A DNA stretch of 64,000 bases from Oscillospiraceae bacterium (GTDB taxonomy: Bacteria; Bacillota; Clostridia; Oscillospirales; Oscillospiraceae), in the NCBI GenBank assembly GCA_009785345.1, contig WQWL01000003.1, forward strand, positions 17,331 to 81,330. The letters are read 5' to 3'. Shown here piece by piece: positions 41,276-64,000 of the stretch. Each line of letters starts with the position of its first letter. Within the stretch, counting starts at the first letter, position 1. The notes beneath the pieces are model-generated. The model was given only the letters and a program-made list of their open reading frames with translations, was not told the origin of the DNA and ran no database searches. The position numbers and the translations under genes are program-made.

Positions 41276-41351
<76 letters not shown>

Positions 41352-41437
41352 ATATACGCATATTTGGTTGTGTTCATCGTCGCTTGCCATGGTTTCAAAA
41401 TCGAACCATTTTATCGCAGAAAAACAGCAACATTCAC

Positions 41438-41467
41438 ATTATAGTCTTAATATACACTGTTTGTCAA
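41438..41467 (-). promoter_or_regulatory. Candidate sigma-A promoter of tRNA-Trp
   Basis: The minus strand reads TTGACA (41467..41462), an 18-nt spacer, then TATAAT (41443..41438), about 85 nt upstream of the mature 5' end. Confidence 0.55.
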
Positions 41468-41490
41468 CTCACATTGACATTTTTTTGTTA

Positions 41491-41519
41491 TTGTACATGT
41501 TTTTTTATTATGATAGAAT
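41491..41519 (+). promoter_or_regulatory. Candidate promoter of the sulfatase-like gene
   Basis: TTGTAC (41491..41496), a 17-nt spacer, then TGaTAGAAT (extended -10, TAGAAT at 41514..41519). Confidence 0.4.
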
Positions 41520-41560
41520 TGTTGTTAGCTTCTAGAAACTTAAGTGTTTTGAGGGATTTT

Positions 41561-51458: not shown

Positions 51459-54400
51459 CTAAAAAACTAACTCAAATGTCTTAATTTCAAAAGGCTTTAT
51501 CTCAAACGTAAACTCGCTTGTATTCTCTGCTATTTCCTTAATACGGTTTTCCAAACAGTCAGTCTCGAATACTTTTGCAACTTTGCTGCGGAGTGTTAAT
51601 ACAGCATTTGTTCTCGTGTTTTCAAACTCGTACATCCTGATAATTACGGAATCGCCTGATTCTGCTTTTTTTACAGTTTCGATGTTAACATTACTGCTGT
51701 TTGTACTCACATAACTGTAGGATGTGGGTGCTGCATCGCATGGCGACTCGATGGCAACAGCATAAGCCGGTGTATTGAGGCAGTGTGCACTTTCTACAGT
51801 ACCGCCCGTTTGCCATGTTCCCAAGTGTGGTAGCAAAGAATAAGTAAACCAATGCTCTTCTTGGTCTGTTGTTTCGTAAGGCTCTATGCCCGATTTTATT
51901 AGAGTCAGGGCTATAACACCGTCATGGATAGCATGACCATACTTACAATCATTTAAGATACTTACACCATAGCCGCCTTCAGAAATATCTGCCCACTTGT
52001 GAGCACAGGTTTCAAAACGCGCCTGATCCCAACTGGTGTTCACATGTGTAGGACGGGAAACATTGCCGAATTGTATATCATAAGTGGCTGCCGGAGACAT
52101 TATATCCGTGCCAAATCGAGCCTTTAGAAGAAGCTGACTCTGTTTCCAATCAACATAGGTTTCAAAATCTATACGGCGAATATTCGCATAAAAATGGATT
52201 TTCTGACTGATAACACTCTCTAAGAATGTACGTTCAACAAGAAGTGTTGCGCGAACCGGACCTGTTTCCAGCCATTTAACTGTTGTGGTTTCATCAACAA
52301 TCCAACTTTTTTCGGTATAATAAATGTCAATATCCCAGTTATCCCATCTCATAGGCTTGTCTTCGTAAACTCGCAGCTCATTGCCCAAGACATCCCCAGT
52401 GAGAACTTCGCGTCCGCTCTCCTTATGGAAAAGTCTGGCAATAAAGCCATTGGTATCGAATTCGGCTTCGTAGAAAGGTGTCTCTATCTTCAAGCCATCA
52501 ATGTTAATCGGGTTGTCGGCATTAGTTTTCTCGGAAACTTTAAGTCCCATAACTCCTTTTGCAGGCATTCCTGAAACATATGCAATCTTACCGCCATCAT
52601 TAGTTTCCTGGCATACTGAAATGCTTCCATCGCCACATACAAGGGCATCAGCATTTATACTACCCGGAATTTCTATGACATCGTCCCGATTGAAGTCCAG
52701 GGTGTTAATAACTGCCAAATCGCCGGAAACATCAGCTACTGCCGAAAGGCGCTCAGTCATAAGTGCATTTGCTTCTTTGCTAAGTTCAGCGTATTCTACC
52801 TTTGTCACATCATACACTTCTTTTATTGATGTTCCGGGAAGAATGTCATGGAACTGGTTTAAGAGTATAACTTCCCACATTGCATCAAGCTCTTTGCGGG
52901 GATAAGGTATATCTTTTGCCAGTACCGAAACAAATTCCAAATCTTGGAGTAGCAGTTCACTTTTGCGGTTTGATCGTTTGTTCCGTGCCATTGATGTATA
53001 TGTTCCGCGATGGTATTCTAAATAAAGCTCGCCCACCCATTTGGGTAGCTCTTTATTGCCAATAGTTCTTTCATAAAGACTGTCGAAATAATCTTTTGAG
53101 TTGCCAAAATGCACTTTTGGAGCTCCATTGACGCCCTTCGACATTCGTTTACCCATTTCGATCATTTCGCGGGTAGGACCACCGCCTCCGTCGCCGAAAC
53201 CATAGGAAATCAATACATCATTATTGATTTCTTTTTGCTGATATCGCTCCCATGCTCCAATTACGCTACAAGGTTGGAGGTATCCGTTGTATGTGGTGGA
53301 AAATGTGTCCGGTGGATTATCGGCACGAGTAGTCGTCACCATGTGTGTAAAAACCTCGCTGCCATCTATGCCGCGCCAGATAAATGTGTCGTAAGGCACA
53401 AGATTAAATTGATTCCAACTCATTTTTGTGGTCATGAAGTAGTCTACACCGCAAAGCTTCATTATCTGTGGCAAAGCTGCACTGTAACCAAAGACATCAG
53501 GGAGCCATAAAATTTTGGAATCGACACCGAATTCGTCCTTAAAAAACTTTTTGCCATACATGAACTGTCTGACGAGAGATTCTCCTGATGCAAGGTTACA
53601 ATCAGGCTCAAGCCACATACCACCCTCTGCTTCCCATCGCCCTTCCGCAGCACGTTCCTTTATCTTTGCGTATAGTGCGGGTGCATGCTCTTGTACGTAT
53701 TTATAGAGCTGGGGTTGGCTTGACATGAATATATACTCCGGATAGTCTTCCATATATTTGAGTACCGTTGCAAAGCTGCGGACAACCTTTTGACGTGTTT
53801 GAGCGACGGTCCACCACCAGGCTACGTCGATATGGGTATGTCCAACGCAAGTAGCGATAATATCCTCATGACCGGCAAGCTTTGTGTACACTTCTTCCTT
53901 TGCAATAACCAATGCATCTTCAATCGATCTGTAAAAACACTCTGAGTGAGGGGTGCGCAGGTCGATTGCATTAACTATTTTTTCAACAGCGACTTCCAAA
54001 TCAATGCGTCGCTTATCGCTTGCGTTCAAACGCGAAATGATTTCAATAGGTACTTTTAAATCATAATAAAGCTCCGTAACAAGGGGTGAAATCTGAGCTA
54101 ACTTCGCGGTTAACTCGAGCTCGCAGGTCTCCGTGCCAGTGTATCCCTGCAAATCGATTCTATATATTTCTCCGGCTTTAGCACATTTTGTTAAAAACAC
54201 ATCTTTATGATTTACATCAAGGGCACACTCAGCCTCCCCGTTTACAAACACCAGAAACTGTGGATTTTTTGCATCCCACCCTGTTGCCTGTGTTGAAAAC
54301 AACAGTGAAAGCGGTTTGCCGTCATAACTTTCCGGAACAGTAATGCTAACTTTAAACCAACTGTTACAGTCCAGTCCTTTCCATTTTTCTGTTTTTGTGT

Positions 54401-54557
54401 CAAACTTGCGCCAAGATACGGAATCGTTGTCTGCTTCTTCTGGTGACCAGAACAGACCGTCTTTAACGAACCAGTCTGTGATTTCGTTGCTTTGAACGAC
54501 AGACAGATTAAGGAGCTCGCGACATATCACCTCTGCCCTTTCTTTTCTGAAATACAT
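51459..54557 (-). CDS. GH38 alpha-mannosidase (no signal peptide)
   Basis: About 1030 aa. GHTHIDVAWWW, the GGMW.EPD.N region and YLEYHRGTYTS are typical GH38 motifs. Start set at MYFRKE.. preceded by AAGGAGGA; the 28 upstream codons of the ORF track were rejected. Confidence 0.9.
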   Translation of the reverse strand: MYFRKERAEVICRELLNLSVVQSNEITDWFVKDGLFWSPEEADNDSVSWRKFDTKTEKWKGLDCNSWFKVSITVPESYDGKPLSLLFSTQATGWDAKNPQFLVFVNGEAECALDVNHKDVFLTKCAKAGEIYRIDLQGYTGTETCELELTAKLAQISPLVTELYYDLKVPIEIISRLNASDKRRIDLEVAVEKIVNAIDLRTPHSECFYRSIEDALVIAKEEVYTKLAGHEDIIATCVGHTHIDVAWWWTVAQTRQKVVRSFATVLKYMEDYPEYIFMSSQPQLYKYVQEHAPALYAKIKERAAEGRWEAEGGMWLEPDCNLASGESLVRQFMYGKKFFKDEFGVDSKILWLPDVFGYSAALPQIMKLCGVDYFMTTKMSWNQFNLVPYDTFIWRGIDGSEVFTHMVTTTRADNPPDTFSTTYNGYLQPCSVIGAWERYQQKEINNDVLISYGFGDGGGGPTREMIEMGKRMSKGVNGAPKVHFGNSKDYFDSLYERTIGNKELPKWVGELYLEYHRGTYTSMARNKRSNRKSELLLQDLEFVSVLAKDIPYPRKELDAMWEVILLNQFHDILPGTSIKEVYDVTKVEYAELSKEANALMTERLSAVADVSGDLAVINTLDFNRDDVIEIPGSINADALVCGDGSISVCQETNDGGKIAYVSGMPAKGVMGLKVSEKTNADNPINIDGLKIETPFYEAEFDTNGFIARLFHKESGREVLTGDVLGNELRVYEDKPMRWDNWDIDIYYTEKSWIVDETTTVKWLETGPVRATLLVERTFLESVISQKIHFYANIRRIDFETYVDWKQSQLLLKARFGTDIMSPAATYDIQFGNVSRPTHVNTSWDQARFETCAHKWADISEGGYGVSILNDCKYGHAIHDGVIALTLIKSGIEPYETTDQEEHWFTYSLLPHLGTWQTGGTVESAHCLNTPAYAVAIESPCDAAPTSYSYVSTNSSNVNIETVKKAESGDSVIIRMYEFENTRTNAVLTLRSKVAKVFETDCLENRIKEIAENTSEFTFEIKPFEIKTFELVF

Positions 54558-54611
54558 ATTGTCATTCCTCCTTAATGTAATTGTGTTTAGTTGCAAAATC
54601 CTGGGAGTTCT

Positions 54612-54648
54612 CAGGAGCTTGGGACAAAAGTTCCGCCCCAAGCTCCTG
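54612..54648. other. 12-bp stem-loop between paralog 1 and the mannosidase gene
   Basis: CAGGAGCTTGGG - 13 nt - CCCAAGCTCCTG. No downstream U tract in the direction of transcription. Confidence 0.4.
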
Positions 54649-54659
54649 CAAAAAATTAG

Positions 54660-57600
54660 TTATGGCTCTAAGGGCAAAGCATGACCATCCGGATTAAAGT
54701 CTACGATAAACGAAACAGAAAGCACTTCGTTTACATTACCTGGTGCATGCCAAACCACTGCATAAATTGCATGAGGGTCATTGCCAGCTCTGACCAGATT
54801 TGCAGCTCTTATGTCTGCTTCATTAAGTCTGGTTCTGCTGTCTATTCTTGTCTGTGGATTTGCCGATCCACCGCGTGGTTGTGGGAAAATCCATACGGGT
54901 GCATCCATATTATCCGGCAACGTGTATGTAACAGGAGTTTCTACTGTCCCTCTCACTGATGCGCCAATCGTAAATACTCCGTCATTATAAGAGGTTACAC
55001 GACCAACTACAAGATTTTGGCGTCCCGCAATGAAGCTCGAAGATGTGCTGTTAAACAGCCAGTTTACAGCTGCATTTACTGTACCATTTGTCCAGGTAGC
55101 CTCTCTTCGTATGCCCTGCATGGCGCTAGACATAATCAGATTTTGAGTTCCTGTTACACCATTGGCAAGTGTGAACAATGGGAAAGTCGTTCCCATATGC
55201 TCAACTACTTCGTTGACACGTATGATCTGCCCAATATTGATGTGTTCACTCTCAAGTAGTCCACCATCGCTTATTGCTGCACCGGGAGGAATGGCAATAT
55301 TTACCATGCCTCTGCCCGTAACAAATGCGGTTCCAAGAGTGTGATTTACACCACCTATTGCGATATTACCTCCGGTAACACCGGTTACCATCGCGAAAGT
55401 TCCTGTAGGAAGGAAGCATAAGCATGGGTCAAAATCACAAACGTGGCAATCGCAAGTGAATATACAGTATGCGTCGCATATTGCACATGGTCTGCATCTG
55501 TCGTTACATTCGGCTTCACAATGTGCACAAGGTACACAGTTCGCGTCACATTCCATTCCGCAGACAGGGCAAATTACGCATTCACAATTACAGACTGCAT
55601 CGCAGATGTCACATGAGTCAATAAACAGCACACAGGTTTGGCATAACTCGCATACTTCACAATCCGGAAACAGCTGGCAGCACGAATATGCAAGTGCAAC
55701 TACAGACAACTGTCTTGTGCGTGTTTCCGGATCGCCACGCCAGTCGCAGAATCCCTGTGTATCGCAGTATAGTTTGTAATACTGATACGCAGTTGTGTTA
55801 CCTAGTAAGTCAAAGACAAAGAACATGCGGTTGTAGTTGGAATAGTCATTAGTCAAACCGGTATATATGACTGTCCATGTTTCTCCGCCATCATTTGAGC
55901 CAGAGAGTGTCCAGCCGTTACCTAAACGACGACCTGGACCCATTGTACCACTATCATTCGACGTTCCGAATATCAAACGGGTTGCTACAAACGGTTCGTC
56001 ATATCTCCATATTGCCCAGAAAGAACCATGCGTATCCATATTCTGGCAGTATTTTGTAAGTGTGCCGGCAACTCCGCCACCAACGCCAGTATAGTCGAAT
56101 AATCGTGTCGCTCCTTCTGCGCCACGGGGATTAGCTGCGGTTACAGCACCAAAACCAAATCCACCGTCAACAAATGTAGGATTCATGTTTACTCTTGCAT
56201 TGACAACCGCACCGGTCGTATTCGGTCTTCCTCCACGCGCGGGGGCATGAGCTGTTGGATTACCATCTCTGTCTACAGGTCTTCCATTATGCCATGCACG
56301 TGCATTGGCGGCCTCTTCAAGAGAAGCGTAACCGAGTCTCCAATAATTTTGCAAGTCTGCACCTAACTCGGCGCTCCAGTCCAAATATTGTGCCCAAAGC
56401 TCATCAATGCTGAAACCTGTCAGTTCTATAATTTGCGGTGTCCTGTTGGCTCCCGTTCCTGTACCCTGTATGAAAGATCCCCCGCGTCCTGTGGGACCAG
56501 CGGCTGTATTCGCTCTGACTGCATTATGCAAATCGCGGTTAAAGTTGGATACATAGTTTTCCGGGAATGTTGAGGCAATTCTTGAGTCCGGATTCGTCCA
56601 ATACTCAGAATGTCTTTCAACCCATCTGAAGAAAGCCGCACCTACCCTGTATGTTTGTGTAAAGCTTTGACCCGATATTCCGAAGTCCGGGATTGTAAAT
56701 CCGGCTTCTCTGTTAAATATACCCATGTAAGGTCTTAACAAATCGGTAAAGTTCTCGTGAATCCAAATAACAACACCACTGCCTCCACCGGGAACAAGAC
56801 TTGCACCTCCATAACGTTGTCCCGCATGAACCAACTCATGTGTTTGTGCGTCCATATCCCAGTGATGTGTCGAACGCCAGCCCGGATCCGTACTTGTGAT
56901 GTAGCGATCTCCATCAGCCGTGTATGACACAATTGCACTGTGCTGTGCGCCCCTGTTAAGCCAACTGAGAGCTACACCATTGGTGTAACTTGACCACCAA
57001 GCAATACTGTCTCTCATATCAAGCTCATACCATTGTGGGCTTAGAGGTGCGGTTTTCCATTCAAATATGGGTTCAAACACTATGTTGAACGCATAGATGA
57101 ATCGGTCTATCACTTCGTCCGGTACTAATGCCCAGTTACCTACATTATTTGGAGAGCTTCCGCCTACTGTTCCTACAGGCTGCCCTCTGTCTCTACCGGG
57201 TCCAGGCATTCTGAAGTTCAAAAACAGATCTGCCGGTGAAGCATCATCTATATGCTTTCCACAACCATCGCCGTCCATACAGTATTCATAGTTGAACGTG
57301 GTAACACCAAACCTCTCACGATTTTCCCATGTTGCATTTGGAGTTTCTGCTACTGTCGGTTGTGTCCATACTGCACCAAAATCGCAGTGATGTCTGAAAG
57401 TGAATCTGAAGGGATTATACGGAACGTTATCCACGCCTGTACCACCTCTCCAGTACGTATTATGACTGAATCCCCAGTCATAGGGAGAATACCCATACGT
57501 ATACATACCCCAACAGGTATCACAGTCGGTGCATTTCATGGTTGTGTATCCCCTAGTGCCACCACCAGTGAACACAGGAAATAAATCCGGGCAATTTGCG

Positions 57601-58454
57601 CCCAGTGGGCAAAATTGTGGACATGAGAGGTAATCTCCGCCACCGCCACCTATCCGTAGAGGGTTAAGAGGGTCGACTTCACCGGATTCTAATTCCGGAG
57701 CTGGACGTGCTATATTCGTAAGTGCCGGGAAATTTTCTAAAGCATTGTCACGTCCGGCAGGAGGGAGATTCGGGTTCCAGGAAGGGTTAGGATGAATTCC
57801 CGGAGTCCAATTGTTAACACCAGTGTTATGCGGACATCTTACCGGAGTAACTCTGGTAACATGTGTACCAGCCGTTGGCGGCACAATATGTTCTACCCAG
57901 TCATGATCTACACAGCATGTGATACGAATCGCATCACGATTGATGTTAAGATTTCCCACCAATGTACTTTCGTGGCATTCTGTGAATGTCACGCCTGCTC
58001 TGACTTCAAATCTTGCATTGTTAATAATTGTTCCGTTGTTGTTAAGCCTAGAATTTGTCACATTTTCCACATGACCATTGTTTGTAAGAATTCCGCCATC
58101 AGCGATGGTGATCGTACCGCCCGAGCTTCCTTGATTATTGATGCGACCGCCCGGGAGTACTACTATTCTACCTTCGATGATGAGCTCTGCGTTACCCTGA
58201 ATATTAAGAGTTGTTTCTACATACAGCGTGCTACCTGCAGGTACTACAAACGGGCTATGCTGTACAAAGATGCCCAAGTTACCTCGAGTTGAAAGGACTG
58301 CATCACCACTTTCTAGTAGTGTACGCAGGTTGTTCGGGTTTGTGCCGGTGAATGGAATCGCTTCGGACGTAGTTTCACTTGTGTTTGCTATGGCTGTAGC
58401 CGCGAGTGAAAGCGATAATATAATGATGAGTGCAATAATTAGTATTTTTTTCAA
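54660..58454 (-). CDS. Giant secreted multidomain protein, paralog 1: N-terminal shared module, BSP-like HExxH peptidase domain, discoidin-like domain, Cys-rich array, unknown C-terminal domain
   Basis: 1264 aa. TTG start 8 nt after AAAGGAG. Signal peptide MKKILIIALIIILSLSLAATAIA. HELVH at 56826..56840 is followed by WIHENFTDLLR. The discoidin-like domain reads FWAIWRYDEP..GNGWTLSGSNDGGETW..YYKLY. Confidence 0.8.
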   Translation of the reverse strand: MKKILIIALIIILSLSLAATAIANTSETTSEAIPFTGTNPNNLRTLLESGDAVLSTRGNLGIFVQHSPFVVPAGSTLYVETTLNIQGNAELIIEGRIVVLPGGRINNQGSSGGTITIADGGILTNNGHVENVTNSRLNNNGTIINNARFEVRAGVTFTECHESTLVGNLNINRDAIRITCCVDHDWVEHIVPPTAGTHVTRVTPVRCPHNTGVNNWTPGIHPNPSWNPNLPPAGRDNALENFPALTNIARPAPELESGEVDPLNPLRIGGGGGDYLSCPQFCPLGANCPDLFPVFTGGGTRGYTTMKCTDCDTCWGMYTYGYSPYDWGFSHNTYWRGGTGVDNVPYNPFRFTFRHHCDFGAVWTQPTVAETPNATWENRERFGVTTFNYEYCMDGDGCGKHIDDASPADLFLNFRMPGPGRDRGQPVGTVGGSSPNNVGNWALVPDEVIDRFIYAFNIVFEPIFEWKTAPLSPQWYELDMRDSIAWWSSYTNGVALSWLNRGAQHSAIVSYTADGDRYITSTDPGWRSTHHWDMDAQTHELVHAGQRYGGASLVPGGGSGVVIWIHENFTDLLRPYMGIFNREAGFTIPDFGISGQSFTQTYRVGAAFFRWVERHSEYWTNPDSRIASTFPENYVSNFNRDLHNAVRANTAAGPTGRGGSFIQGTGTGANRTPQIIELTGFSIDELWAQYLDWSAELGADLQNYWRLGYASLEEAANARAWHNGRPVDRDGNPTAHAPARGGRPNTTGAVVNARVNMNPTFVDGGFGFGAVTAANPRGAEGATRLFDYTGVGGGVAGTLTKYCQNMDTHGSFWAIWRYDEPFVATRLIFGTSNDSGTMGPGRRLGNGWTLSGSNDGGETWTVIYTGLTNDYSNYNRMFFVFDLLGNTTAYQYYKLYCDTQGFCDWRGDPETRTRQLSVVALAYSCCQLFPDCEVCELCQTCVLFIDSCDICDAVCNCECVICPVCGMECDANCVPCAHCEAECNDRCRPCAICDAYCIFTCDCHVCDFDPCLCFLPTGTFAMVTGVTGGNIAIGGVNHTLGTAFVTGRGMVNIAIPPGAAISDGGLLESEHINIGQIIRVNEVVEHMGTTFPLFTLANGVTGTQNLIMSSAMQGIRREATWTNGTVNAAVNWLFNSTSSSFIAGRQNLVVGRVTSYNDGVFTIGASVRGTVETPVTYTLPDNMDAPVWIFPQPRGGSANPQTRIDSRTRLNEADIRAANLVRAGNDPHAIYAVVWHAPGNVNEVLSVSFIVDFNPDGHALPLEP

Positions 58455-58490
58455 AATGCAAAACTCCTTTCATAGGCTTCAGGTTGTCGG

Positions 58491-58519
58491 CATGATTAAC
58501 CGACAACCTGCGAAGCCGT
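58491..58519 (-). other. Stem-loop after paralog 2 (homologous to 62331..62358)
   Basis: aggttgtcgg - 9 nt - ccgacaacct. It lacks a U tract. Confidence 0.4.
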
Positions 58520-58544
58520 TTTGATTATTGATTAGTGTTTAGTA

Positions 58545-61500
58545 TTAATCGCAGGCAACACGAATAGCTCCCCGATTAATGTTAAGATTTCCTGTAACAA
58601 CGCTGTCACAGCACTCCAGGAATGTCACGCCTGTTCTGACTTCAAATCTTGCGTTGTTAATTATTGTTCCGTGATTGTTGAGTCTAGAGTTTGTCACGTT
58701 CTCTACATGACCGTTGTTGACCAGCACCCCACCATCTGCGATGGTAATTGTACCGCCTCCATTGCCGCTACCCTGATTGTTGATTCTTCCACCAGGAAGT
58801 ACTACAACACGACCCTCAATGATGAGTTCGGCATCTCGTTGTATGTTTAATGCGGTTTCAATATACAGTGTTCTGCCTGCAGGCACTGTAAATGGACTGT
58901 GCTGTGTGAAGATGCCCAAGTTACTCCGAGTTGAAAGAACCACATTGTTGCTTGCTAGCTGTGTAAGCAGATGGTTCGGATTAGTGACAGTGGAAGGAAT
59001 CGGTGGATTCTCATTTTCAGTTAGATAAATAACTGAGAGTTGAATCGCTACACTATCCGGACCTCTTGGAGCTTCAAGTCTGTAGTGTGAGAATGCTCTC
59101 ATGTTATGCGAGAAATCCACTCTAAAGAACCTGTTGTTAAAGTTTGAGTAGTCGTCAGCTAAACCTGTGTACAGAACATGCCATGTTTCACCATCGGTAG
59201 AACCGGAAACGGTCCATCCGTCGCCCATACGGCGCGGCAATGATAGATTATCATGGGTTGCGAATATAAGGCTGTCGGCTATAAATGCCTCTTCGTATCT
59301 CCACTCTACCCAGAAATCATCTGTCGTAGTTACAACTTGGAAGGCTGTGCCGTTTCCGCCTGCGGGAAGTTGCGCTGCCGGCCATCCGCTAGCGGTGAAT
59401 CTGCCTCTCGGACCACCGTCCGGATTAAATCCGGTAGCAGCACCTTGTGGACCTAATCTCCTGTCAAACAGATTGTACGCCTGCCTGTTGTGCCATGAAC
59501 CAAAGCCTGCGTTAGCCGGGTTGCTGAAATCTGCATGACCGGCAGTAAACACACCTGGTACTGGTCCATGCTCAAATATTGGGTCAAGACGTAGTGTTCT
59601 GTCGCCAACGGCTTCCGTAAGTGTATAGTAACCTGTTGCCCAACCTTCGGTGAACTCCTCGTAGCGTGCATGTTCATATATCATGAATTGTGCCCATAGC
59701 TCATGTTTGGTATAACCGGTGAGCCAGTAATACTGCCTGTGGTCTGCGAAATACATTCCCTCTTCTTTAACAGTTGAGTTCATAGCTTGTGCGAAGTGGT
59801 AGAAGTCCGGATTGCCCGTTCTTTCCCTTACAACATCTATGTATTGACTGTCAACCCAGAACCAGAACGCAGCGCCAACTCTATAAGATAGTGTCCAACC
59901 AAAGAGGTAGTGCGGGCTACCTGGCTCAAAGTAAAGAATCGGCGGATTTCTCCAGTCGGCTTGATCATTGAAGAGACCAATCCATTCTCTCATCATATCC
60001 GTCATATTTTCATGGATATGCAAGGGTACAGTGCCGCCGTAAAGCTGTGCATTGTGAATCAGCTCGTGGGTCATTGCATCGGTATCCCAAGGTTGAGCAC
60101 GCAACCATCGTTGACCGACACCGGATTGAAGACCTGATGCCCAGGCAATTGAGTTTATACCTGCGTCAAGCACGTATGTTACCGGGTTGATTGTACCGGG
60201 CAGATGAGATGGATTTGTAATAGTTTCGTCAAACATAAAGTAGCTTATAGGTACCCATAAGACATTAAAGCTATGGACAAATCTATCCATCATCGCACTT
60301 GGACCTACACCATCCCTCTCATAAATATCCGTCCATGTCAGTACTGTTGACCAAGGAAGTCTATTGGCGGGCATTGGAACCGGGTCAAGGAAGGTGTGGT
60401 AAATTTCTGATACAGGTACATATTCACCACAGGTGGTACATTCTTCCCACCACCAATAGTCCGGATTGAAGCCCATTGCTTCAACACCCGGTCCCGGGTT
60501 TTGTCTGTGATCGGGATTCTCCGGATTAATCCAGTCCCATACACCCCATCCAGCGTCGAAGCCATCTCTGGGAGCTTGCTTGAAGTTTCCTTCAAAGAAG
60601 TTTCCGCTGCCTGTGTGTCTTGCATTTGGATCAAGAGGCGTAAAGTCCCTACGGGAAGCTACATTTTCATAGCCACATGTAGTACAAACATCTGATGTAA
60701 AGCCTTGATCTCCGCATGTAGCCGGTGTGACTACCGGTGCAAACACGTGGGTACAGGTCCAGGTTTCGGATGCAATTCTGACTGATGCAAGCTGTATTAC
60801 ATTGCCCATTGCAGGGGCAGGTGACCAAAGTCTGTAATATTGATATGCTGTGGTGTTATCAGGCAAGTCTGCAACGAAGAATCTAAAGTTGTATGGTCCG
60901 GTTTCATCTCTTTCGCCTAAATGTAACAATGTCCATTCTGCTATTGGTAAGTTCGGATCATTAGTGGCTCTGAGATACCATCCTGTATTCATTCGACGGT
61001 AATCTTGACCGGCGTTTCCATGGTTATCGTTAGCATTTTGCCAGATAAAGCGAGATGCAACGACAGGCTCGGGATATCTCCACTCTGCCCAGAATAGAGC
61101 ATTCTGTGCTTGTGTGGATACGAATTTCTGGTTTTGATTATCCGTAAATAGGAATTGTGGAGGCTCACCAGCGGGGAAGCCAGTAGCCGGACCGCGATGG
61201 AATGCATGACCGTGCACCAAAGTATGGCTGCCCACGGCTTCTGCAAGGGTCATATAACCTGTAGCGTGATCAGGCTCTCCGCCAGCGCCCCTTAATAGTC
61301 TCCAGGCATCTTCAAGTGAAGCACCGATTCTACTATAGAAGAAACCAGCTCTTAGATCATCACATACCCAGGTGGTCATGTTGGTGCCGCCGTGTCTTAA
61401 AGGATAAGTACCAAGGCGTGCATGTTGAGCCATATCCCGGATTGCATTTACACCATATTCGCCAAATTCTTGGGCAATGAATATGAGCAATTGTGCTCCA

Positions 61501-62186
61501 GATGCATCGGCTAGTGGGTTTGTAGTTGCTCCTGCGGGCACCCAGTTTCCTTGCTCTACATACTGACCAAAGTGCACTCTTCCGAATACGCGAAGACCAT
61601 TAGTAATCCATGACGGGAATGTTCCAACTCCGCCGGGGGTAGGATATGGAGCACCCTGCGCCAATTGAACAAGACCGGGAATAATAATGTCTGTGTTATA
61701 TGCATTTGCACCGGAGATTTGAGCAAGTGTAACGCCTACACGTCCGTAGCCCGGTGTTGGGTTACCGGCGGCACCTGGAAGCACAACGGTAGTGTTGCCT
61801 AATACTATTCTTACAGGGAATCTTACACCGTCGCCATAAAATGCGACAATTTCTGCCCAAACTGCTGCAAACGTCGATTCAATACGTTCTACAACATAGG
61901 TATCAACGGTATCCCATGCGCCTTCAAGTGTAAGGTATGGCAAGGGTCCATCAAAGGCATCCGGGTTCTCTGTGTCATCCGTGTCATCTGCATCATCAAG
62001 TGTTAACGGATATTCAGAGTCTTCTGGGGAAGGGTACTGTGAGTAATTTTCTGCCAGGTCTTCGTCTGAAGTTTCATCATAATATGCAAAAGCAGTCAAA
62101 AATGAAAACATCAATGAGAAAACCAGTAAAACTGATAATACATTTCTAAGTTTCTTGCGAGATTCGGCAAATATTTTTCCTGTCAT
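58545..62186 (-). CDS. Giant secreted multidomain protein, paralog 2: degenerate BSP-like domain, discoidin-like, Cys-pair linker, active-looking BSP-like HExxH domain, discoidin-like, C-terminal shared module
   Basis: 1213 aa counted from the ATG at 62186 (MTGKIF.., SD GAGAGG). The hydrophobic signal region is LSVLLVFSLMFSFLTAFA. HELIH at 60054..60068 is followed by HIHENMTDMMRE. Confidence 0.8.
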   Translation of the reverse strand: MTGKIFAESRKKLRNVLSVLLVFSLMFSFLTAFAYYDETSDEDLAENYSQYPSPEDSEYPLTLDDADDTDDTENPDAFDGPLPYLTLEGAWDTVDTYVVERIESTFAAVWAEIVAFYGDGVRFPVRIVLGNTTVVLPGAAGNPTPGYGRVGVTLAQISGANAYNTDIIIPGLVQLAQGAPYPTPGGVGTFPSWITNGLRVFGRVHFGQYVEQGNWVPAGATTNPLADASGAQLLIFIAQEFGEYGVNAIRDMAQHARLGTYPLRHGGTNMTTWVCDDLRAGFFYSRIGASLEDAWRLLRGAGGEPDHATGYMTLAEAVGSHTLVHGHAFHRGPATGFPAGEPPQFLFTDNQNQKFVSTQAQNALFWAEWRYPEPVVASRFIWQNANDNHGNAGQDYRRMNTGWYLRATNDPNLPIAEWTLLHLGERDETGPYNFRFFVADLPDNTTAYQYYRLWSPAPAMGNVIQLASVRIASETWTCTHVFAPVVTPATCGDQGFTSDVCTTCGYENVASRRDFTPLDPNARHTGSGNFFEGNFKQAPRDGFDAGWGVWDWINPENPDHRQNPGPGVEAMGFNPDYWWWEECTTCGEYVPVSEIYHTFLDPVPMPANRLPWSTVLTWTDIYERDGVGPSAMMDRFVHSFNVLWVPISYFMFDETITNPSHLPGTINPVTYVLDAGINSIAWASGLQSGVGQRWLRAQPWDTDAMTHELIHNAQLYGGTVPLHIHENMTDMMREWIGLFNDQADWRNPPILYFEPGSPHYLFGWTLSYRVGAAFWFWVDSQYIDVVRERTGNPDFYHFAQAMNSTVKEEGMYFADHRQYYWLTGYTKHELWAQFMIYEHARYEEFTEGWATGYYTLTEAVGDRTLRLDPIFEHGPVPGVFTAGHADFSNPANAGFGSWHNRQAYNLFDRRLGPQGAATGFNPDGGPRGRFTASGWPAAQLPAGGNGTAFQVVTTTDDFWVEWRYEEAFIADSLIFATHDNLSLPRRMGDGWTVSGSTDGETWHVLYTGLADDYSNFNNRFFRVDFSHNMRAFSHYRLEAPRGPDSVAIQLSVIYLTENENPPIPSTVTNPNHLLTQLASNNVVLSTRSNLGIFTQHSPFTVPAGRTLYIETALNIQRDAELIIEGRVVVLPGGRINNQGSGNGGGTITIADGGVLVNNGHVENVTNSRLNNHGTIINNARFEVRTGVTFLECCDSVVTGNLNINRGAIRVACD

Positions 62187-62330
62187 TTGTTGAAAACCTC
62201 TCAAAATTATATTCCTCGTAGTAAGGACTTTATTTCATGATAGTTCCTTAGGAGCGAGGTCTCCTCTTGTTGCTGCATTAATTATGTGCAACATGGGTAA
62301 ACGGTTCATCAAGTTCTTTGAAGATGCCTG

Positions 62331-62358
62331 GGTTGCCGGTATTATTTGACCGGCAACC
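62331..62358 (-). other. Stem-loop after paralog 3
   Basis: ggttgccgg - 10 nt - ccggcaacc. Confidence 0.4.
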
Positions 62359-62401
62359 TCGGCACAATCGTACGTTTGTGAAGCGTGCTCGCGGAGCATA
62401 T

Positions 62402-64000
62402 TTATTCGCAGGCAATGCGGATCGCTCCACGATTGATGTTAAGATTTCCTGTTACGACGCTATCGCAGCATTCCAGGAATGTCACACCTGTTCTGACTTC
62501 AAATCTTGCGCGGTTAGCGATGGTTCCGAAGTTATTGAGAGTAGAGTTAGTCACATTCTCTACATGACCATTATTGACAAGAGCGCCACCCTCAGCAATG
62601 GTAATTGTACCGCCTCCGGCACCGCTACCTTGGTTGTTGATTCTTCCGCCCGGAAGCACGACAACGGCACCTTTAATGATAAGTTCAGCATCGCGTTGTA
62701 TATTTAATGTGGTCTCAATATACAATATCCTGTCTGCCGGCACTATAAATGGACTGTGTTGCGTAAAGATACCCAAGTTGCCACGGGTTGAAAGGACAGC
62801 ATCACCACTTTCCAACAGTGTAAGCAGGTGGTTCGGATTGGTGGCGGCAAATGGGGTTGCGGGCTCTGCTGTGGTCAGGTGGATTGATGAAAGTTGGACA
62901 TTGTTACCCATTGGGTTAACCGGTACTGCCTGATTTGGTACGTCTCCACCCCTTGGGGATTCAAGTCTGAAGTGAGTAAAAGTTCCTCTGTTTTCCACTG
63001 GGATATCGACTCTGAAGAATCTAAAATTAGCATTCCGTGAATCGTATCTCGTGCCAACATACAGTTCTACCCAATCCTCGCCTTCACCGGCACTACCTAA
63101 GAGTCTCCAACCATCGCCCATTCTGCGAAATTGTGTGGCGTTATCATTGGCAGTCTGGAATATGAAGCTATCCGCTGTTACTGGTGCTTCATACATCCAC
63201 TCAACCCAGAAATTCTGCGGCGTCGCATTGAATTTTTGATTCTGGTTCGCGGTGAATAGTTGATGAGAGTCTTCGTTGCCGTTGGCTAGCATACCAGGTC
63301 CACCACGTAAGTGTACAGGAGCATTTTCAGGGGCTACCAGAATACTGTCACCCACTGCTTCTGAAAGTGTCGCATAGCCTTCTGGTCCTTGTAAGCGACC
63401 TACCATGTGAGCCGCACCGAATTCCATGTATTGTGCCCACAATTCATCATATGTATAACCTGTTAGATTGATAAACTGTCTGCCGTCCATATGGAATCTG
63501 CCGTCCAGCTTCATGATGTTGTTTAACGCAGATTGGAAGTGTTCCCATGGGGTGTGGTCATGCCTACGGTTATACACTAGAGAGCTTTCTGCGATAAGAT
63601 TTCTGCCTTCAGGGTTTCTGTTCAGTTGCGGGAATGCCTGACTGCCAACCGTTGGATCATTTGCAAATCCGCCATAGGTATTGTTAATCCAGTTGAAGAA
63701 TGCGGCAGTTGTACTGTATCCGGCGAGGAAGCCTCTTGTATGTTGAGCATGAGCCGGATTATTGGATTGCGGGTGGAACAACGGATTAGAGGTGTTGCTC
63801 CGTCTCTGGAACATGTCAAACTTTTCCCTATCGTTGTCGGCAAGACCTTCCAATATCCACATAGGCACATAAGTAAACAACTGGAAGTTATGACTGAGTT
63901 CGTGAGTCTGAACAGCAGTCCATGGGGATGTAAACAGATGCGCACGCGCTATGCCAGCGACATTACCGGAAGCCCAACCTGTAGGCCCACCCGGCCATCC
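62402..64000 (-). CDS. Giant secreted multidomain protein, paralog 3 (5' end outside the window): BSP-like HExxH domain, discoidin-like domain, C-terminal shared module
   Basis: The frame stays open from 63880 to the window edge; my translation of 63881..64000 is GWPGGPTGWASGNVAGIARAHLFTSPWTAVQTHELSHNFQ. HELSH at 63890..63904 is followed by WILEGLAD. The ORF track Met at 63880 is internal. Confidence 0.8.
   Translation of the reverse strand, partial: GWPGGPTGWASGNVAGIARAHLFTSPWTAVQTHELSHNFQLFTYVPMWILEGLADNDREKFDMFQRRSNTSNPLFHPQSNNPAHAQHTRGFLAGYSTTAAFFNWINNTYGGFANDPTVGSQAFPQLNRNPEGRNLIAESSLVYNRRHDHTPWEHFQSALNNIMKLDGRFHMDGRQFINLTGYTYDELWAQYMEFGAAHMVGRLQGPEGYATLSEAVGDSILVAPENAPVHLRGGPGMLANGNEDSHQLFTANQNQKFNATPQNFWVEWMYEAPVTADSFIFQTANDNATQFRRMGDGWRLLGSAGEGEDWVELYVGTRYDSRNANFRFFRVDIPVENRGTFTHFRLESPRGGDVPNQAVPVNPMGNNVQLSSIHLTTAEPATPFAATNPNHLLTLLESGDAVLSTRGNLGIFTQHSPFIVPADRILYIETTLNIQRDAELIIKGAVVVLPGGRINNQGSGAGGGTITIAEGGALVNNGHVENVTNSTLNNFGTIANRARFEVRTGVTFLECCDSVVTGNLNINRGAIRIACE

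What the first reader, a model, noticed from the sequence alone, without database searches (positions are those of the whole stretch)
54660..64000. Tandem array of three giant secreted paralogs: BSP-like HExxH peptidase + discoidin-like domains + a shared module
Three consecutive minus-strand genes occupy 62402 to the window edge, 58545..62186 and 54660..58454. The two complete genes encode about 1213 and 1264 aa; the third is cut by the window edge. Both complete genes have clear Sec-type signal peptides. Each protein has at least one domain with T-H-E-L-x-H-x-x-Q followed 10-20 aa later by W/H-I-x-E-[GN]-x-x-D (codons at 63890..63904, 60054..60068, 56826..56840). I associate that arrangement with the 'basic secretory protein / peptidase of plants and bacteria' family (Pfam PF04450). 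Each such domain is followed by a segment of the form FW[AV][EI]W.Y.EP......[FI]......D......RR[ML]..GW.[LV]..S.DG..W........Y.N.N..FF.[VF]D........Y[RK]L, which looks like an F5/8-type-C (discoidin, CBM32-like) sugar-binding fold. I saw no LPXTG, SLH, dockerin or choline-binding anchor. The array sits directly upstream of a signal-peptide-less GH38 alpha-mannosidase. As far as I know, bacterial BSP-family proteins are biochemically uncharacterised. I cannot match this triplicated, >1200-aa multidomain format to any described system.
Basis: partly seen in the sequence, partly recalled or inferred. Interest (0 to 1): 0.75.

Follow-up and report, generated by a model that had tools for sequence, protein, structure and literature searches.

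The report
Secreted PR-17-like zinc hydrolase gene trio
Three neighbouring genes of an uncultured gut-type bacterium encode giant secreted enzymes. Each combines a poorly understood plant-defence-type (PR-17/BSP) zinc-hydrolase domain, a sugar-binding domain and a previously undescribed beta-solenoid module, which dozens of other secreted enzymes in the same metagenomes also carry and which may be a surface-anchoring tag.

Summary
Three minus-strand paralogs lie at the stated coordinates. The HExxH codons are exact, and each protein has one N-terminal Sec-type signal peptide.

- **BSP domain.** Direct Pfam scanning fails: A and B give no hit and C scores 15 bits against a cut-off of 23.8. A profile of the HExxH domain recovers 439 proteins, and 93 of the 95 best are PF04450. 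hhalign against bona fide BSP proteins gives 99.9% probability.
- **Discoidin domain.** An AlphaFold model (pLDDT 82) matches discoidin/CBM32 folds.
- **Degenerate copies (new here).** B and C each carry an extra N-terminal BSP+discoidin unit that has lost HExxH but is under purifying selection.
- **Shared module (new here).** It is a confident ~150-aa beta-solenoid with no Pfam or PDB relative. In a few metagenomes it sits at the termini of at least 77 loci encoding subtilases, S15 and M28 peptidases, many glycoside hydrolases and PL11 lyases.
- **Locus (new here).** Beyond the window edge the order is GntR, Opp-type ABC importer, C, B, A, cytoplasmic GH38. Close relatives keep this set, but with B and A fused and GH38 inverted.

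Best reading: surface-displayed, glycan-guided BSP hydrolases that feed (glyco)peptide uptake. I rate it a new variant of a known but uncharacterised family. The module is the most novel part.

The parts
54660..58454 (-). Gene A (1264 aa). Domain order: signal peptide, beta-solenoid module, Cys/Trp-rich linker, BSP domain, discoidin-like domain, Cys-rich run, C-terminal domain of unknown family.
   Evidence: ORF; domain borders; RBS AAAGGAG lies 8 nt before the TTG start.
58386..58454 (-). A signal peptide (aa 1-23, MKKILIIALIIILSLSLAATAIA|N).
   Evidence: Single N-terminal hydrophobic window and an AxA site. Assigned by inspection; no SignalP was run.
57912..58355 (-). A beta-solenoid module (aa 34-181), placed here directly after the signal peptide.
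   Evidence: 75% identical to the B and C copies, with dN/dS 0.11-0.13 at dS>1. AlphaFold pLDDT 93.5, pTM 0.88, all short strands. No Pfam hit and no PDB hit better than E 0.06.
57150..57911 (-). A linker region (aa 182-435), rich in Cys, Trp and Pro. No family assigned.
   Evidence: No Pfam hit. Conserved in P0001 and P0008.
56334..57149 (-). A BSP/PR-17-type zincin domain (aa 436-707). HELVH at 56826..56840; third-ligand Glu in WIHENFTD.
55686..56333 (-). A discoidin/CBM32-like domain (aa 708-923).
   Evidence: Aligns with B discoidin-2, which was modelled and matched CBM32 folds.
55416..55685 (-). A Cys-rich run (aa 924-1013), made of many CxxC-like motifs. A has 43 Cys in total.
   Evidence: Sequence; Cys count; no Pfam or PDB hit.
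54663..55415 (-). A C-terminal domain (aa 1014-1264), family unknown.
   Evidence: No Pfam hit. Conserved at about 51% identity in P0008. Absent from the B-A fusion proteins of relatives.
58545..62186 (-). Gene B (1213 aa from the ATG at 62186). Domain order: signal peptide, acidic linker, degenerate BSP, discoidin-1, Cys linker, BSP, discoidin-2, beta-solenoid module.
61287..61946 (-). B degenerate BSP domain (ORF aa 87-306). HExxH is replaced by IPGLVQLAQ and the ligand Glu by Asn (WITNGLRV).
   Evidence: hhalign against verified PF04450 proteins: 99.55%, E 2e-23. dN/dS 0.09 against the ortholog.
60768..61286 (-). B discoidin-like domain 1 (aa 307-479).
60366..60767 (-). B Cys-containing linker (aa 480-613) with C-x-H...ATCG...C-x-x-CG and C-x-x-CG motifs.
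   Evidence: Sequence. Only a sub-threshold zinc-ribbon hit. dN/dS 0.07.
59634..60365 (-). B catalytic-type BSP domain (aa 614-857). HELIH at 60054..60068.
   Evidence: Model pLDDT is mostly above 90 here. dN/dS 0.04.
59016..59633 (-). B discoidin/CBM32-like domain 2 (aa 858-1063).
   Evidence: AlphaFold model plus Foldseek matches to CBM32, muskelin discoidin and the GH92 CBM32, probability 1.0, target-normalised TM 0.5-0.68. Viral F5/8 type C hits as well.
58548..59000 (-). B beta-solenoid module (aa 1069-1219), at the extreme C-terminus.
62402..64000 (-). Gene C, the 3' 1599 bases (last 532 of 1264 aa). The full protein has the same architecture as B.
63380..64000 (-). C catalytic-type BSP domain, with its N-terminal part cut by the window edge. 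HELSH at 63890..63904; WILEGLAD.
   Evidence: (PF04450 at 15 bits).
62870..63379 (-). C discoidin-like domain 2.
62405..62857 (-). C beta-solenoid module, at the extreme C-terminus.
51459..54557 (-). GH38 alpha-mannosidase (1032 aa), no signal peptide, directly downstream on the same strand.
   Evidence: Pfam GH38 N, middle, C and C2 domains at E 3e-93 to 4e-19. Adjacent in L005, L007 and L008 too, but inverted there.
58455..58544 (-). B-A intergenic hairpin, with no U-tract.
   Evidence: RNA fold -29.7 kcal/mol, z -6.0. No terminator call.
62290..62401 (-). C-B intergenic hairpin. Its stem is related in sequence to the B-A hairpin.
   Evidence: -38.5 kcal/mol, z -4.5.
54558..54659 (-). A-GH38 intergenic hairpin.
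   Evidence: -33.7 kcal/mol, z -4.9.

Best explanation
A, B and C are Sec-secreted, multi-domain zinc-dependent hydrolases of the BSP/PR-17 (PF04450) zincin family.

**Domains.**
- Each protein has one BSP domain that keeps every family-invariant residue: D-x-D-x-x-T-H-E-x-x-H-x-x-Q, a Glu 14-24 residues after the second His of the motif, and an Arg seven residues after that Glu.
- Each BSP domain is fused directly to a discoidin/CBM32-like beta-sandwich. I infer that this sandwich holds a glycan on or near the substrate.
- B and C also carry an N-terminal BSP+discoidin unit that has lost the metal site but is conserved. I infer a binding or scaffolding role for it.
- Each protein carries exactly one copy of a ~150-aa beta-solenoid. 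In the same metagenomes this solenoid is the terminal module of many unrelated secreted peptidases, glycosidases and lyases. I infer that it binds one common partner, either a cell-wall polymer or a scaffold protein, so it would act as the surface-anchoring or docking device.

**Locus and proposed pathway.** The genes sit between a GntR regulator plus Opp/Dpp-type ABC importer and a cytoplasmic GH38 alpha-mannosidase. The proposed pathway is:
1. The enzymes cut glycan-bearing proteins or peptides outside the cell.
2. The Opp-type system imports the (glyco)peptides.
3. GH38 trims mannose inside the cell.

**Shown versus inferred.** Shown: family membership by profile, the folds, purifying selection, the distribution of the module, and the gene order. 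Inferred: metal dependence, peptide-bond cleavage, glycan binding, anchoring, and the coupling to Opp and GH38.
For: **BSP homology.**
- The profile search gives 439 hits. The 95 proteins ranked just below the query's own close homologs were scanned, and 93 are PF04450.
- hhalign gives 99.94% probability and E 2e-37 against 23 verified PF04450 proteins.
- The invariant H, E, H, Q, E and R residues are retained in all three catalytic-type copies.

**Discoidin fold.**
- The model has pLDDT 82 and pTM 0.75.
- The top 50 PDB matches are mostly CBM32, F5/8 type C or galactose-binding-like domains, including the CBM32 of a GH92 mannosidase.
- My local HMM of the segment also hits regions that Pfam calls PF00754 above threshold in P0047 and P0064.

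**Degenerate units.** hhalign gives 99.55%, and dN/dS is 0.05-0.10.

**Module.**
- pLDDT 93.5, beta-solenoid.
- dS>1 with dN/dS about 0.12 between the three copies, so this is constraint and not gene conversion.
- 85 metagenome matches in 77 loci. Most lie 0-10 residues from the C-terminus, some directly after the signal peptide, and some are internal or in tandem.
- Partner domains in 36 complete ORFs: S8 six times; GH3 and PL11 three times each; S15 and M28 twice each; GH10, GH16, GH78, GH85, GH89 and GH95 once each.

**Context.**
- The order is GntR, SBP_bac_5, two permeases, two ATPases, C, B, A, GH38, all on one strand of the 93-kb source contig.
- The same gene set is seen in L005, L007/L025 and L008.
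- An Opp-type operon also lies directly upstream of the more distant homolog P0005.
- BSP domains elsewhere are fused to F5/8C, ricin, CBM6, GH16 and GH92 domains.
Against: - No BSP-family protein has a demonstrated substrate. Barley PR-17 did not cleave casein or gelatin (PMC9322406), so 'peptidase' is itself unproven.
- The Pfam gathering threshold is not reached.
- Foldseek returned only discoidin matches, so the catalytic domain has no structural neighbour on record and I could not inspect the active-site geometry.
- The near-invariant Gly after the ligand Glu is Asn in A and B.
- GH38 linkage is confined to the closest clade, and the gene is inverted there.
- Homologs P0003 and P0004 show no adjacent Opp or GH38 genes.
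- The Opp/Dpp/Nik family is not specific for peptides.
- No partner for the module was found, and a substrate-binding (CBM-like) role would explain its distribution on glycosidases about equally well.
Confidence: 0.5

Rival explanations
1. The proteins are not digestive peptidases. They are antagonistic or lytic factors that attack the glycan-decorated cell walls of other microbes (fungal mannoproteins, bacterial peptidoglycan stems), in parallel with the defence role of plant PR-17. The discoidin domains would target the enzyme to foreign cell-wall glycans, and Opp would merely recycle the released peptides.
For: - Plant BSP/PR-17 proteins act in immunity against fungi and bacteria without any known general protease activity (PMC9322406, PMC11327054).
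- BSP domains are fused to GH16, GH92 and lectin-type domains elsewhere.
- A GH38 mannosidase is adjacent.
- OppF-type ATPase models include murein-tripeptide importers.
Against: - No immunity gene, toxin-type secretion system or lysin-type domain lies in the locus.
- The module is shared with ordinary polysaccharide-degrading and peptidase enzymes, which fits nutrition better than warfare.
Confidence: 0.15
2. The BSP domains are not hydrolytic here. The proteins would be large surface adhesins or lectins in which zincin-like, discoidin and beta-solenoid domains all serve only to bind particles or host surfaces.
For: - No activity is known for the family (PMC9322406).
- Two of the five BSP-type domains have clearly lost the metal site yet are conserved.
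- The weak Foldseek neighbours of the module are adhesins, autotransporter passengers and tapirin.
Against: - All three remaining copies keep the complete HExxHxxQ...E...R set.
- Those copies are the most constrained parts of the proteins, with dN/dS 0.04-0.05.
- Plant PRp27 is labelled by active-site-directed hydroxamate probes (PMC9322406).
Confidence: 0.12
3. The shared beta-solenoid is a substrate-targeting carbohydrate-binding module, for example for plant fibre or soil particles. It would not be a cell-surface anchor or docking module.
For: - It is attached to many glycoside hydrolases and lyases.
- Weak structural neighbours include the cellulose-binding tapirin C-domain and pectate lyases.
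Against: - It is equally attached to S8, S15 and M28 peptidases and to the BSP proteins.
- Copies stay at 50-80% identity across unrelated proteins while synonymous sites are saturated. This is more typical of modules that recognise one conserved partner.
Confidence: 0.2
4. The array is an assembly artefact or a set of decaying duplicates with no current function.
For: - The source is a metagenome assembly.
- Repeats of 72-78% nucleotide identity could in principle mislead an assembler.
Against: - The three genes are only 26-46% identical outside the module.
- All are intact ORFs with dN/dS 0.04-0.16 against orthologs.
- The same order recurs on independent contigs from other samples.
Confidence: 0.02

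Closest known systems
Plant PR-17 / basic secretory proteins (Pfam PF04450; NtPRp27, barley HvPR-17a/b)
   Same: - Homologous zincin-type domain, with hhalign 99.9% against bacterial PF04450 proteins.
- Same HExxHxxQ...E(G)xxD...R signature.
- Secreted.
- Function unresolved.
   Different: - The plant proteins are single-domain, about 225 aa.
- These proteins are 1213-1264 aa with discoidin domains, a second degenerate copy, Cys-rich linkers and a beta-solenoid.
- They score below the Pfam threshold.
Bacterial PF04450 proteins fused to F5/8 type C or lectin domains (for example P0047 and P0064 from the profile search)
   Same: A BSP domain next to a discoidin domain. 5 of the 95 best hits carry PF00754.
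   Different: - They are much shorter (398-723 aa).
- Their discoidin domains are recognisable by Pfam.
- They have no degenerate duplicate and no beta-solenoid.
- None is characterised, as far as I could find.
M60-like/enhancin-type glycoprotein-targeting zinc peptidases with CBM32 (for example Bacteroides BT4244, Clostridium perfringens Zmp proteins). This comparison is from my own knowledge.
   Same: Same working logic: a secreted HExxH gluzincin fused to CBM32-type glycan-binding modules, so that proteolysis is directed at glycoproteins.
   Different: No sequence relationship was detected, with no Peptidase_M60 or related Pfam hit. This is an analogy, not membership.
Dockerin, SLH and similar terminal modules of Gram-positive secreted enzymes
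   Same: The beta-solenoid has the same distribution pattern: one conserved terminal module on dozens of different secreted hydrolases in one lineage.
   Different: - Different fold: beta-solenoid, not an EF-hand pair or SLH.
- No Pfam hit.
- No partner identified.
- Not found in 185,579 reference genomes by pattern scan.
eCIS_core/DUF4157 (PF13699) and M3B oligoendopeptidase F
   Same: They share the T-H-E-x-x-H-x-x-Q motif context. 24 of 95 BSP hits also touch PF13699. The canonical BSP profile weakly matches the PepF motif region (E 0.1).
   Different: The similarity is at motif level only and is not significant, and the overall domains differ.

Membership tests
Pfam PF04450 (BSP / PR-17, 'peptidase of plants and bacteria') | Score at or above the Pfam gathering threshold (23.8 bits) | tested here: not met
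   A and B give no hit at E<=0.1. C scores 15.0 bits, E 0.022.
Pfam PF04450 (BSP / PR-17, 'peptidase of plants and bacteria') | Whole-domain homology to verified members by profile methods | tested here: met
   93 of the 95 best profile hits are PF04450. hhalign of A1 against 23 verified members gives 99.94%, E 2e-37, over 176 columns.
Pfam PF04450 (BSP / PR-17, 'peptidase of plants and bacteria') | Family-invariant residues: D-x-D, T-H-E-x-x-H-x-x-Q, downstream Glu, Arg, Y...F/W | tested here: met
   Present in one domain each of A, B and C. Absent from the N-terminal copies of B and C.
Pfam PF04450 (BSP / PR-17, 'peptidase of plants and bacteria') | Zinc binding and hydrolytic activity | not testable with these tools
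   Unknown even for the plant proteins, apart from hydroxamate-probe labelling (PMC9322406).
F5/8 type C (discoidin) / CBM32 | Pfam PF00754 at or above threshold | tested here: not met
   No hit at E<=0.1 in A, B or C.
F5/8 type C (discoidin) / CBM32 | Discoidin-type beta-sandwich fold | tested here: met
   Model pLDDT is generally 70-96 in the strands (one block at 55). Foldseek probability is 1.0 to CBM32, muskelin discoidin and F5/8C structures, with target-normalised TM 0.5-0.68.
F5/8 type C (discoidin) / CBM32 | Sequence link to verified members | tested here: met
   A local HMM of the segment matches P0047 251-410 and P0064 50-169, which Pfam calls PF00754 at 66.7 and 33.7 bits. The local E-values refer to a small database.
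F5/8 type C (discoidin) / CBM32 | Carbohydrate binding | not testable with these tools
   Needs glycan arrays or ITC.
M60-like / enhancin glycoprotein peptidases | Sequence membership (Pfam Peptidase_M60 and relatives) | tested here: not met
   No such hit. This is a functional analogy only.
Known Gram-positive anchors (LPXTG, SLH, dockerin, choline-binding, CWB2) | Recognisable motif or Pfam domain | tested here: not met
   No Pfam hit. No LPXTG motif and no second hydrophobic segment.
Dockerin-like or anchor-like terminal module (functional class, for the beta-solenoid) | One conserved module at the termini of many different secreted enzymes of one lineage | tested here: met
   77 loci. Most copies lie 0-10 aa from the C-terminus. 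Partner domains are S8, S15, M28, GH3/10/16/78/85/89/95 and PL11.
Dockerin-like or anchor-like terminal module (functional class, for the beta-solenoid) | Binding to a cohesin-like scaffold or cell-wall polymer | not testable with these tools
   No partner identified.
Beta-helix adhesin / haemagglutinin-repeat families | Significant sequence or structure match | tested here: inconclusive
   Fil_haemagg scores E 0.044, below threshold. The best Foldseek match has E 0.06, and all weak hits are beta-helices.
GH38 alpha-mannosidase (neighbouring gene) | The four GH38 Pfam domains above threshold | tested here: met
   E values of 3e-93, 4e-28, 2e-63 and 4e-19.

The most novel reading that the evidence does not exclude
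The ~150-aa beta-solenoid is a previously undescribed surface-assembly module, a functional counterpart of dockerin or SLH. It would organise dozens of secreted peptidases, glycosidases and lyases on the cell surface of an uncultured Bacillota lineage. Within that system the BSP/PR-17 domains would be glycan-guided (glyco)peptidases whose products are taken up by the adjacent Opp-type importer and de-mannosylated by GH38. If so, this would give the first biochemical handle on the PR-17 family.
Probability: 0.3. Interest if true: 0.8.

Novelty: new variant of a known kind. Interest (0 to 1): 0.6.

Why it matters
**PR-17/BSP.** This is one of the last pathogenesis-related protein families without a known reaction. 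Here its domain sits in an operon-like bacterial context: fused to glycan-binding domains, next to an Opp-type importer and a cytoplasmic mannosidase. That context turns 'function unknown' into a concrete test, namely E-to-A-controlled cleavage of mannosylated glycoproteins or glycopeptides. If the test succeeds, it would also suggest what plant PR-17 does to pathogens.

**The beta-solenoid.** This is a candidate new anchoring or docking module shared by a whole secretome of an uncultured lineage. If it has a defined partner, it would be a new way for Gram-positive bacteria to assemble extracellular enzyme systems, and a useful tag for reading such secretomes from metagenomes.

Tried and rejected
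- **Direct family scans.** Pfam and NCBIfam scans of A, B and C gave nothing significant.
- **PDB by sequence.** Searches with the proteins, the BSP profiles and the module profile found nothing beyond motif-level noise.
- **Foldseek of the two-domain model.** Both the PDB and viral libraries returned only discoidin-type matches, so I obtained no structural neighbour for the catalytic domain. My structure and fold-search quotas were then spent.
- **GTDB reference genomes.** Pattern scans with the BSP profile and with the module both found no relative. These scans need near-exact short motifs, so distant relatives could be missed.
- **Promoter/terminator scan of 50-64 kb.** No convincing sites in the intergenic gaps.
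- **Gene conversion as the cause of the module's high identity.** Rejected, because synonymous sites are saturated (dS 1.1-1.6) with dN/dS about 0.12.
- **The module as a C-terminal sorting signal.** Rejected, because copies also occur directly after signal peptides, internally and in tandem.
- **GH38 linkage as a general feature.** Rejected. It holds only in the closest clade and is inverted there, while P0003, P0004 and P0005 lack it.
- **Horizontal transfer suggested by higher G+C.** Not pursued. G+C is 0.47-0.48 against 0.37-0.43 in the neighbours, but GC3 differs little.
- **Habitat.** Literature searches for the metagenome identifiers found nothing. My recollection that these JGI sets are termite hindgut samples is unverified.

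Full report
**1. What is in the sequence**

Three long ORFs lie head to tail on the minus strand: A at 54660..58454 (1264 aa), B at 58545..62204, and C from 62402 to the window edge.
- B is 1213 aa from the ATG at 62186, the start used by the public gene call.
- Each motif is followed by the stated Glu-containing motif and by the FW[AV][EI]W...RRM..GW segment.
- Each protein has a single N-terminal hydrophobic segment ending in AxA. None has a lipobox, a second hydrophobic stretch or an LPXTG motif. This is inspection, not SignalP.

The source is a 93-kb ENA metagenome contig (ERZ27257300, k141_1604884). It gives full-length C as P0006, 1264 aa, 100% identical over the part in the window.

**2. 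Family of the HExxH domain**

Direct scans fail.
- Pfam finds nothing in A or B. In C, PF04450 scores 15 bits against a cut-off of 23.8.
- NCBIfam and PDB sequence searches are empty.

I then aligned the HExxH domains of A, B, C and three close homologs into profile A1. I searched it against 1.84 billion representative proteins.
- The search gave 439 hits, 140 of them below 1e-10.
- Of the 95 proteins ranked just below the query's own close homologs, 93 are PF04450 when scanned one by one.
- hhalign of A1 against 23 of them, all verified as PF04450, gives 99.94% probability and E 2e-37 over 176 columns.
- All positions that are invariant across the family are kept in one domain of each of A, B and C. 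These are D-x-D, T-H-E-x-x-H-x-x-Q, the Glu of E-G-x-A-D, an Arg seven residues after that Glu, and the Y...F/W helix.
- In A and B the near-invariant Gly after the Glu is Asn.

A profile of canonical BSP proteins finds no solved structure. It gives only a motif-level match at E 0.1 to M3B oligoendopeptidase F.

**3. Discoidin-like domain**

I modelled B residues 596-1066 with a 70-row alignment. The model has mean pLDDT 82.3 and pTM 0.75, and both domain cores are mostly above 90.
- Foldseek against the PDB returns mostly discoidin, CBM32 or galactose-binding-like domains. Examples are muskelin discoidin, Clostridium perfringens CBM32s and the CBM32 of a GH92 alpha-mannosidase. Probability is 1.0 and target-normalised TM is 0.5-0.68.
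- The viral library gives F5/8 type C proteins.
- A local HMM of the segment also matches regions of P0047 and P0064 that Pfam calls PF00754 above threshold.

The fold assignment is therefore sound, although Pfam does not see it directly.

**4.

B and C each start with an additional BSP+discoidin unit after the signal peptide and an acidic linker.
- In this unit HExxH reads IPGLVQLAQ in B and TQGLFALAQ in C, and the ligand Glu is lost in both: WITNGLRV in B and WITRGLRY in C.
- hhalign of these units against verified BSP proteins gives 99.55% and E 2e-23.
- Against orthologs in L005 their dN/dS is 0.05-0.10, as low as for the other domains.

They are conserved non-catalytic derivatives. The three genes thus hold five BSP-type and five discoidin-type domains. 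Frequent active-site substitutions in BSPs have been noted before (PMC3650047).

**5. The shared module**

The ~150-aa module sits right after the signal peptide in A and at the extreme C-terminus of B and C.
- The three copies are 75-81% identical in protein, but their synonymous sites are saturated (dS 1.1-1.6, dN/dS 0.11-0.13). The similarity therefore reflects constraint, not recent gene conversion.
- AlphaFold gives a very confident model of about twenty strands of two to four residues each, that is a beta-solenoid (pLDDT 93.5, pTM 0.88).
- There is no PDB match better than E 0.06. The weak matches are all beta-helices: autotransporter passengers, ice-binding proteins, pectate lyases, tapirin and adhesins.
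- Pfam and a PDB profile search find nothing.
- A pattern scan of 185,579 reference genomes finds no relative.
- A scan of JGI metagenomes finds 85 matches in 77 loci, all in five datasets (Ga0209755, Ga0123355, Ga0131853, Ga0123352, JGI24694J35173).
- In these ORFs the module usually ends 0-10 residues before the stop codon of proteins of 900 to more than 2100 aa. It sometimes follows the signal peptide, is internal in the B-A fusion ORFs, and occurs in tandem in two ORFs (L067, L081).
- Scanning 36 complete ORFs shows the partner domains:
  - six subtilases;
  - three each of GH3 and PL11;
  - two each of S15, M28 and F5/8C;
  - single GH10, GH16, GH78, GH85, GH89 and GH95 enzymes.

This is the distribution expected of a lineage-specific anchoring or docking module. 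The N-terminal and internal copies argue against a C-terminal sorting signal. Its partner is unknown.

**6. Genomic context**

On the source contig the order on one strand is GntR, SBP_bac_5 (681 aa), two permeases, two oligo_HPY ATPases, C, B, A, GH38.
- NCBIfam places the transporter in the Opp/Dpp/Nik family without a specific assignment.
- The intergenic gaps hold strong hairpins without U-tracts (z -4.5 to -6.0) and no called terminators. This is compatible with one long transcript with internal stabilising or attenuating structures.
- Close relatives on three other contigs (L005, L007 with L025, L008; 79-87% protein identity) keep C and GH38. L025 shows GntR and the SBP, and L005 an Opp-type ATPase, upstream of them. 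In these relatives B and A form one ORF of 1945-1964 aa joined at a single module copy, the A part ends after its discoidin domain, and GH38 is inverted.
- This looks like recombination between the two module copies, or its reverse.
- A more distant homolog, P0005 (an NCBI record of a Firmicutes MAG), also has an Opp-type operon directly upstream but no GH38. P0003 and P0004 have neither.

Linkage to Opp is thus recurrent but not universal. Linkage to GH38 is specific to the closest clade.

**7. Mechanism**

The best-supported reading has three elements.
- The proteins are secreted, probably surface-held BSP-type zinc hydrolases whose catalytic domain is guided by an attached glycan-binding domain.
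- They sit in a locus that imports small peptides or glycopeptides.
- A cytoplasmic alpha-mannosidase completes the locus.

BSP domains elsewhere are fused to lectin-type modules and even to GH16 and GH92, which fits a glycoconjugate substrate. The chemistry is unproven. PR-17 is labelled by hydroxamate probes, but no cleavage of casein or gelatin was detected (PMC9322406), and reviews still call the family the least understood PR class (PMC11327054).

The rivals are:
- a lytic or antagonistic role against other microbes' walls;
- a purely adhesive role;
- a substrate-binding rather than anchoring role for the beta-solenoid.

I give the main reading 0.5 overall. Its components are rated as follows:

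| Component | Confidence |
|---|---|
| BSP homology | about 0.95 |
| Discoidin fold | about 0.95 |
| Secretion | about 0.9 |
| Module as anchor or dock | about 0.45 |
| Glycopeptide-harvest pathway | about 0.3 |

**8. Novelty and score**

The BSP family and BSP+discoidin fusions already exist in databases, so the catalytic part is a new, highly elaborated variant of a known but uncharacterised kind. I found no paper on bacterial members or on this architecture. The beta-solenoid module appears undescribed and is the most novel element.

From memory only, the JGI datasets are termite hindgut metagenomes. I could not verify this.

Interest is 0.6. The locus makes the long-open PR-17 function directly testable and points to a possible new secretome-organising module, but every functional step still needs experiment.

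Noticed in passing
window 58455-58544, 62290-62401, 54558-54659 (minus strand): Each intergenic gap after C, B and A holds a strong hairpin with no U-tract (-29.7, -38.5 and -33.7 kcal/mol; z -6.0, -4.5 and -4.9). The two hairpins after C and B share the stem GGTTGyCGG...CCGrCAACC. They may be mRNA-stabilising or processing elements, or weak attenuators.
   Followed up: partly
L005:5981-11857, L007, L008 (relatives of window 54660-62186): In three related contigs B and A form a single ORF of 1945-1964 aa, joined through one copy of the beta-solenoid. The A part stops after its discoidin domain and GH38 is on the opposite strand. This suggests recombination between the two module copies that flank the B-A junction in the window.
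   Followed up: partly
L007-L083 (JGI metagenome loci): The beta-solenoid module is the terminal domain of at least 77 loci encoding S8, S15 and M28 peptidases, GH3/10/16/78/85/89/95 and PL11 enzymes. Several contigs carry 2-3 such genes. Two ORFs have tandem copies (L067, L081). Small proteins consisting of signal peptide, module and a short tail also exist (L011, L043, L052).
   Followed up: partly
window 55416-55685 (A aa 924-1013): An extremely Cys-rich run of CxxC-like motifs in a secreted protein; A has 43 Cys in total. Similar CxxC-rich tails occur in P0005, P0008, L061 and L067. No family match.
   Followed up: no
window 60366-60767 (B aa 480-613) and the equivalent part of C: The linker has C-x-H...(P)ATCG...C-x-x-CG and W-W-x-E-x-C-x-x-CG motifs, and it is conserved (dN/dS 0.07). 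It is possibly a small zinc-ribbon-like knuckle. Only a sub-threshold Zn_Ribbon_1 hit was found.
   Followed up: no
L003:1579-9481 (beyond the window's right edge): A GntR/FCD regulator and a five-gene Opp/Dpp-type ABC importer, with an unusually long 681-aa binding protein, lie directly upstream of C on the same strand.
   Followed up: partly
window 61947-62084 (B aa 41-86) and C aa 24-70: Acidic linkers rich in Tyr, Asp, Glu and Pro follow the signal peptides. They evolve fast (dN/dS 0.4-0.6). L011 ends in a similar YEYE-rich tail.
   Followed up: no
window 41276-41351 (-): A tRNA-Trp (CCA) gene overlaps the 5' end of the mechanical ORF 41294..43627 (sulfatase-family protein), so that ORF's true start must lie further downstream.
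   Followed up: no
window 44889-46451 (-): A 520-aa protein with five bacterial SH3 (SH3_3) repeats. It is probably a cell-wall-binding protein and is unrelated to the array.
   Followed up: no
window 54000-64000: G+C of the array is 0.47-0.48, against 0.37-0.43 for downstream genes. GC3 differs less (0.38-0.45 against 0.30-0.40), so amino-acid composition explains much of the difference.
   Followed up: partly
window 57792-58292 (+): A 166-aa antisense ORF lies inside gene A. It has no support and is most likely spurious.
   Followed up: no
P0009, P0012, P0014, P0016-P0022, P0024, P0028 (profile hits): Many bacterial BSP-family proteins carry two tandem BSP domains, so duplication of this domain is common in the family.
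   Followed up: no
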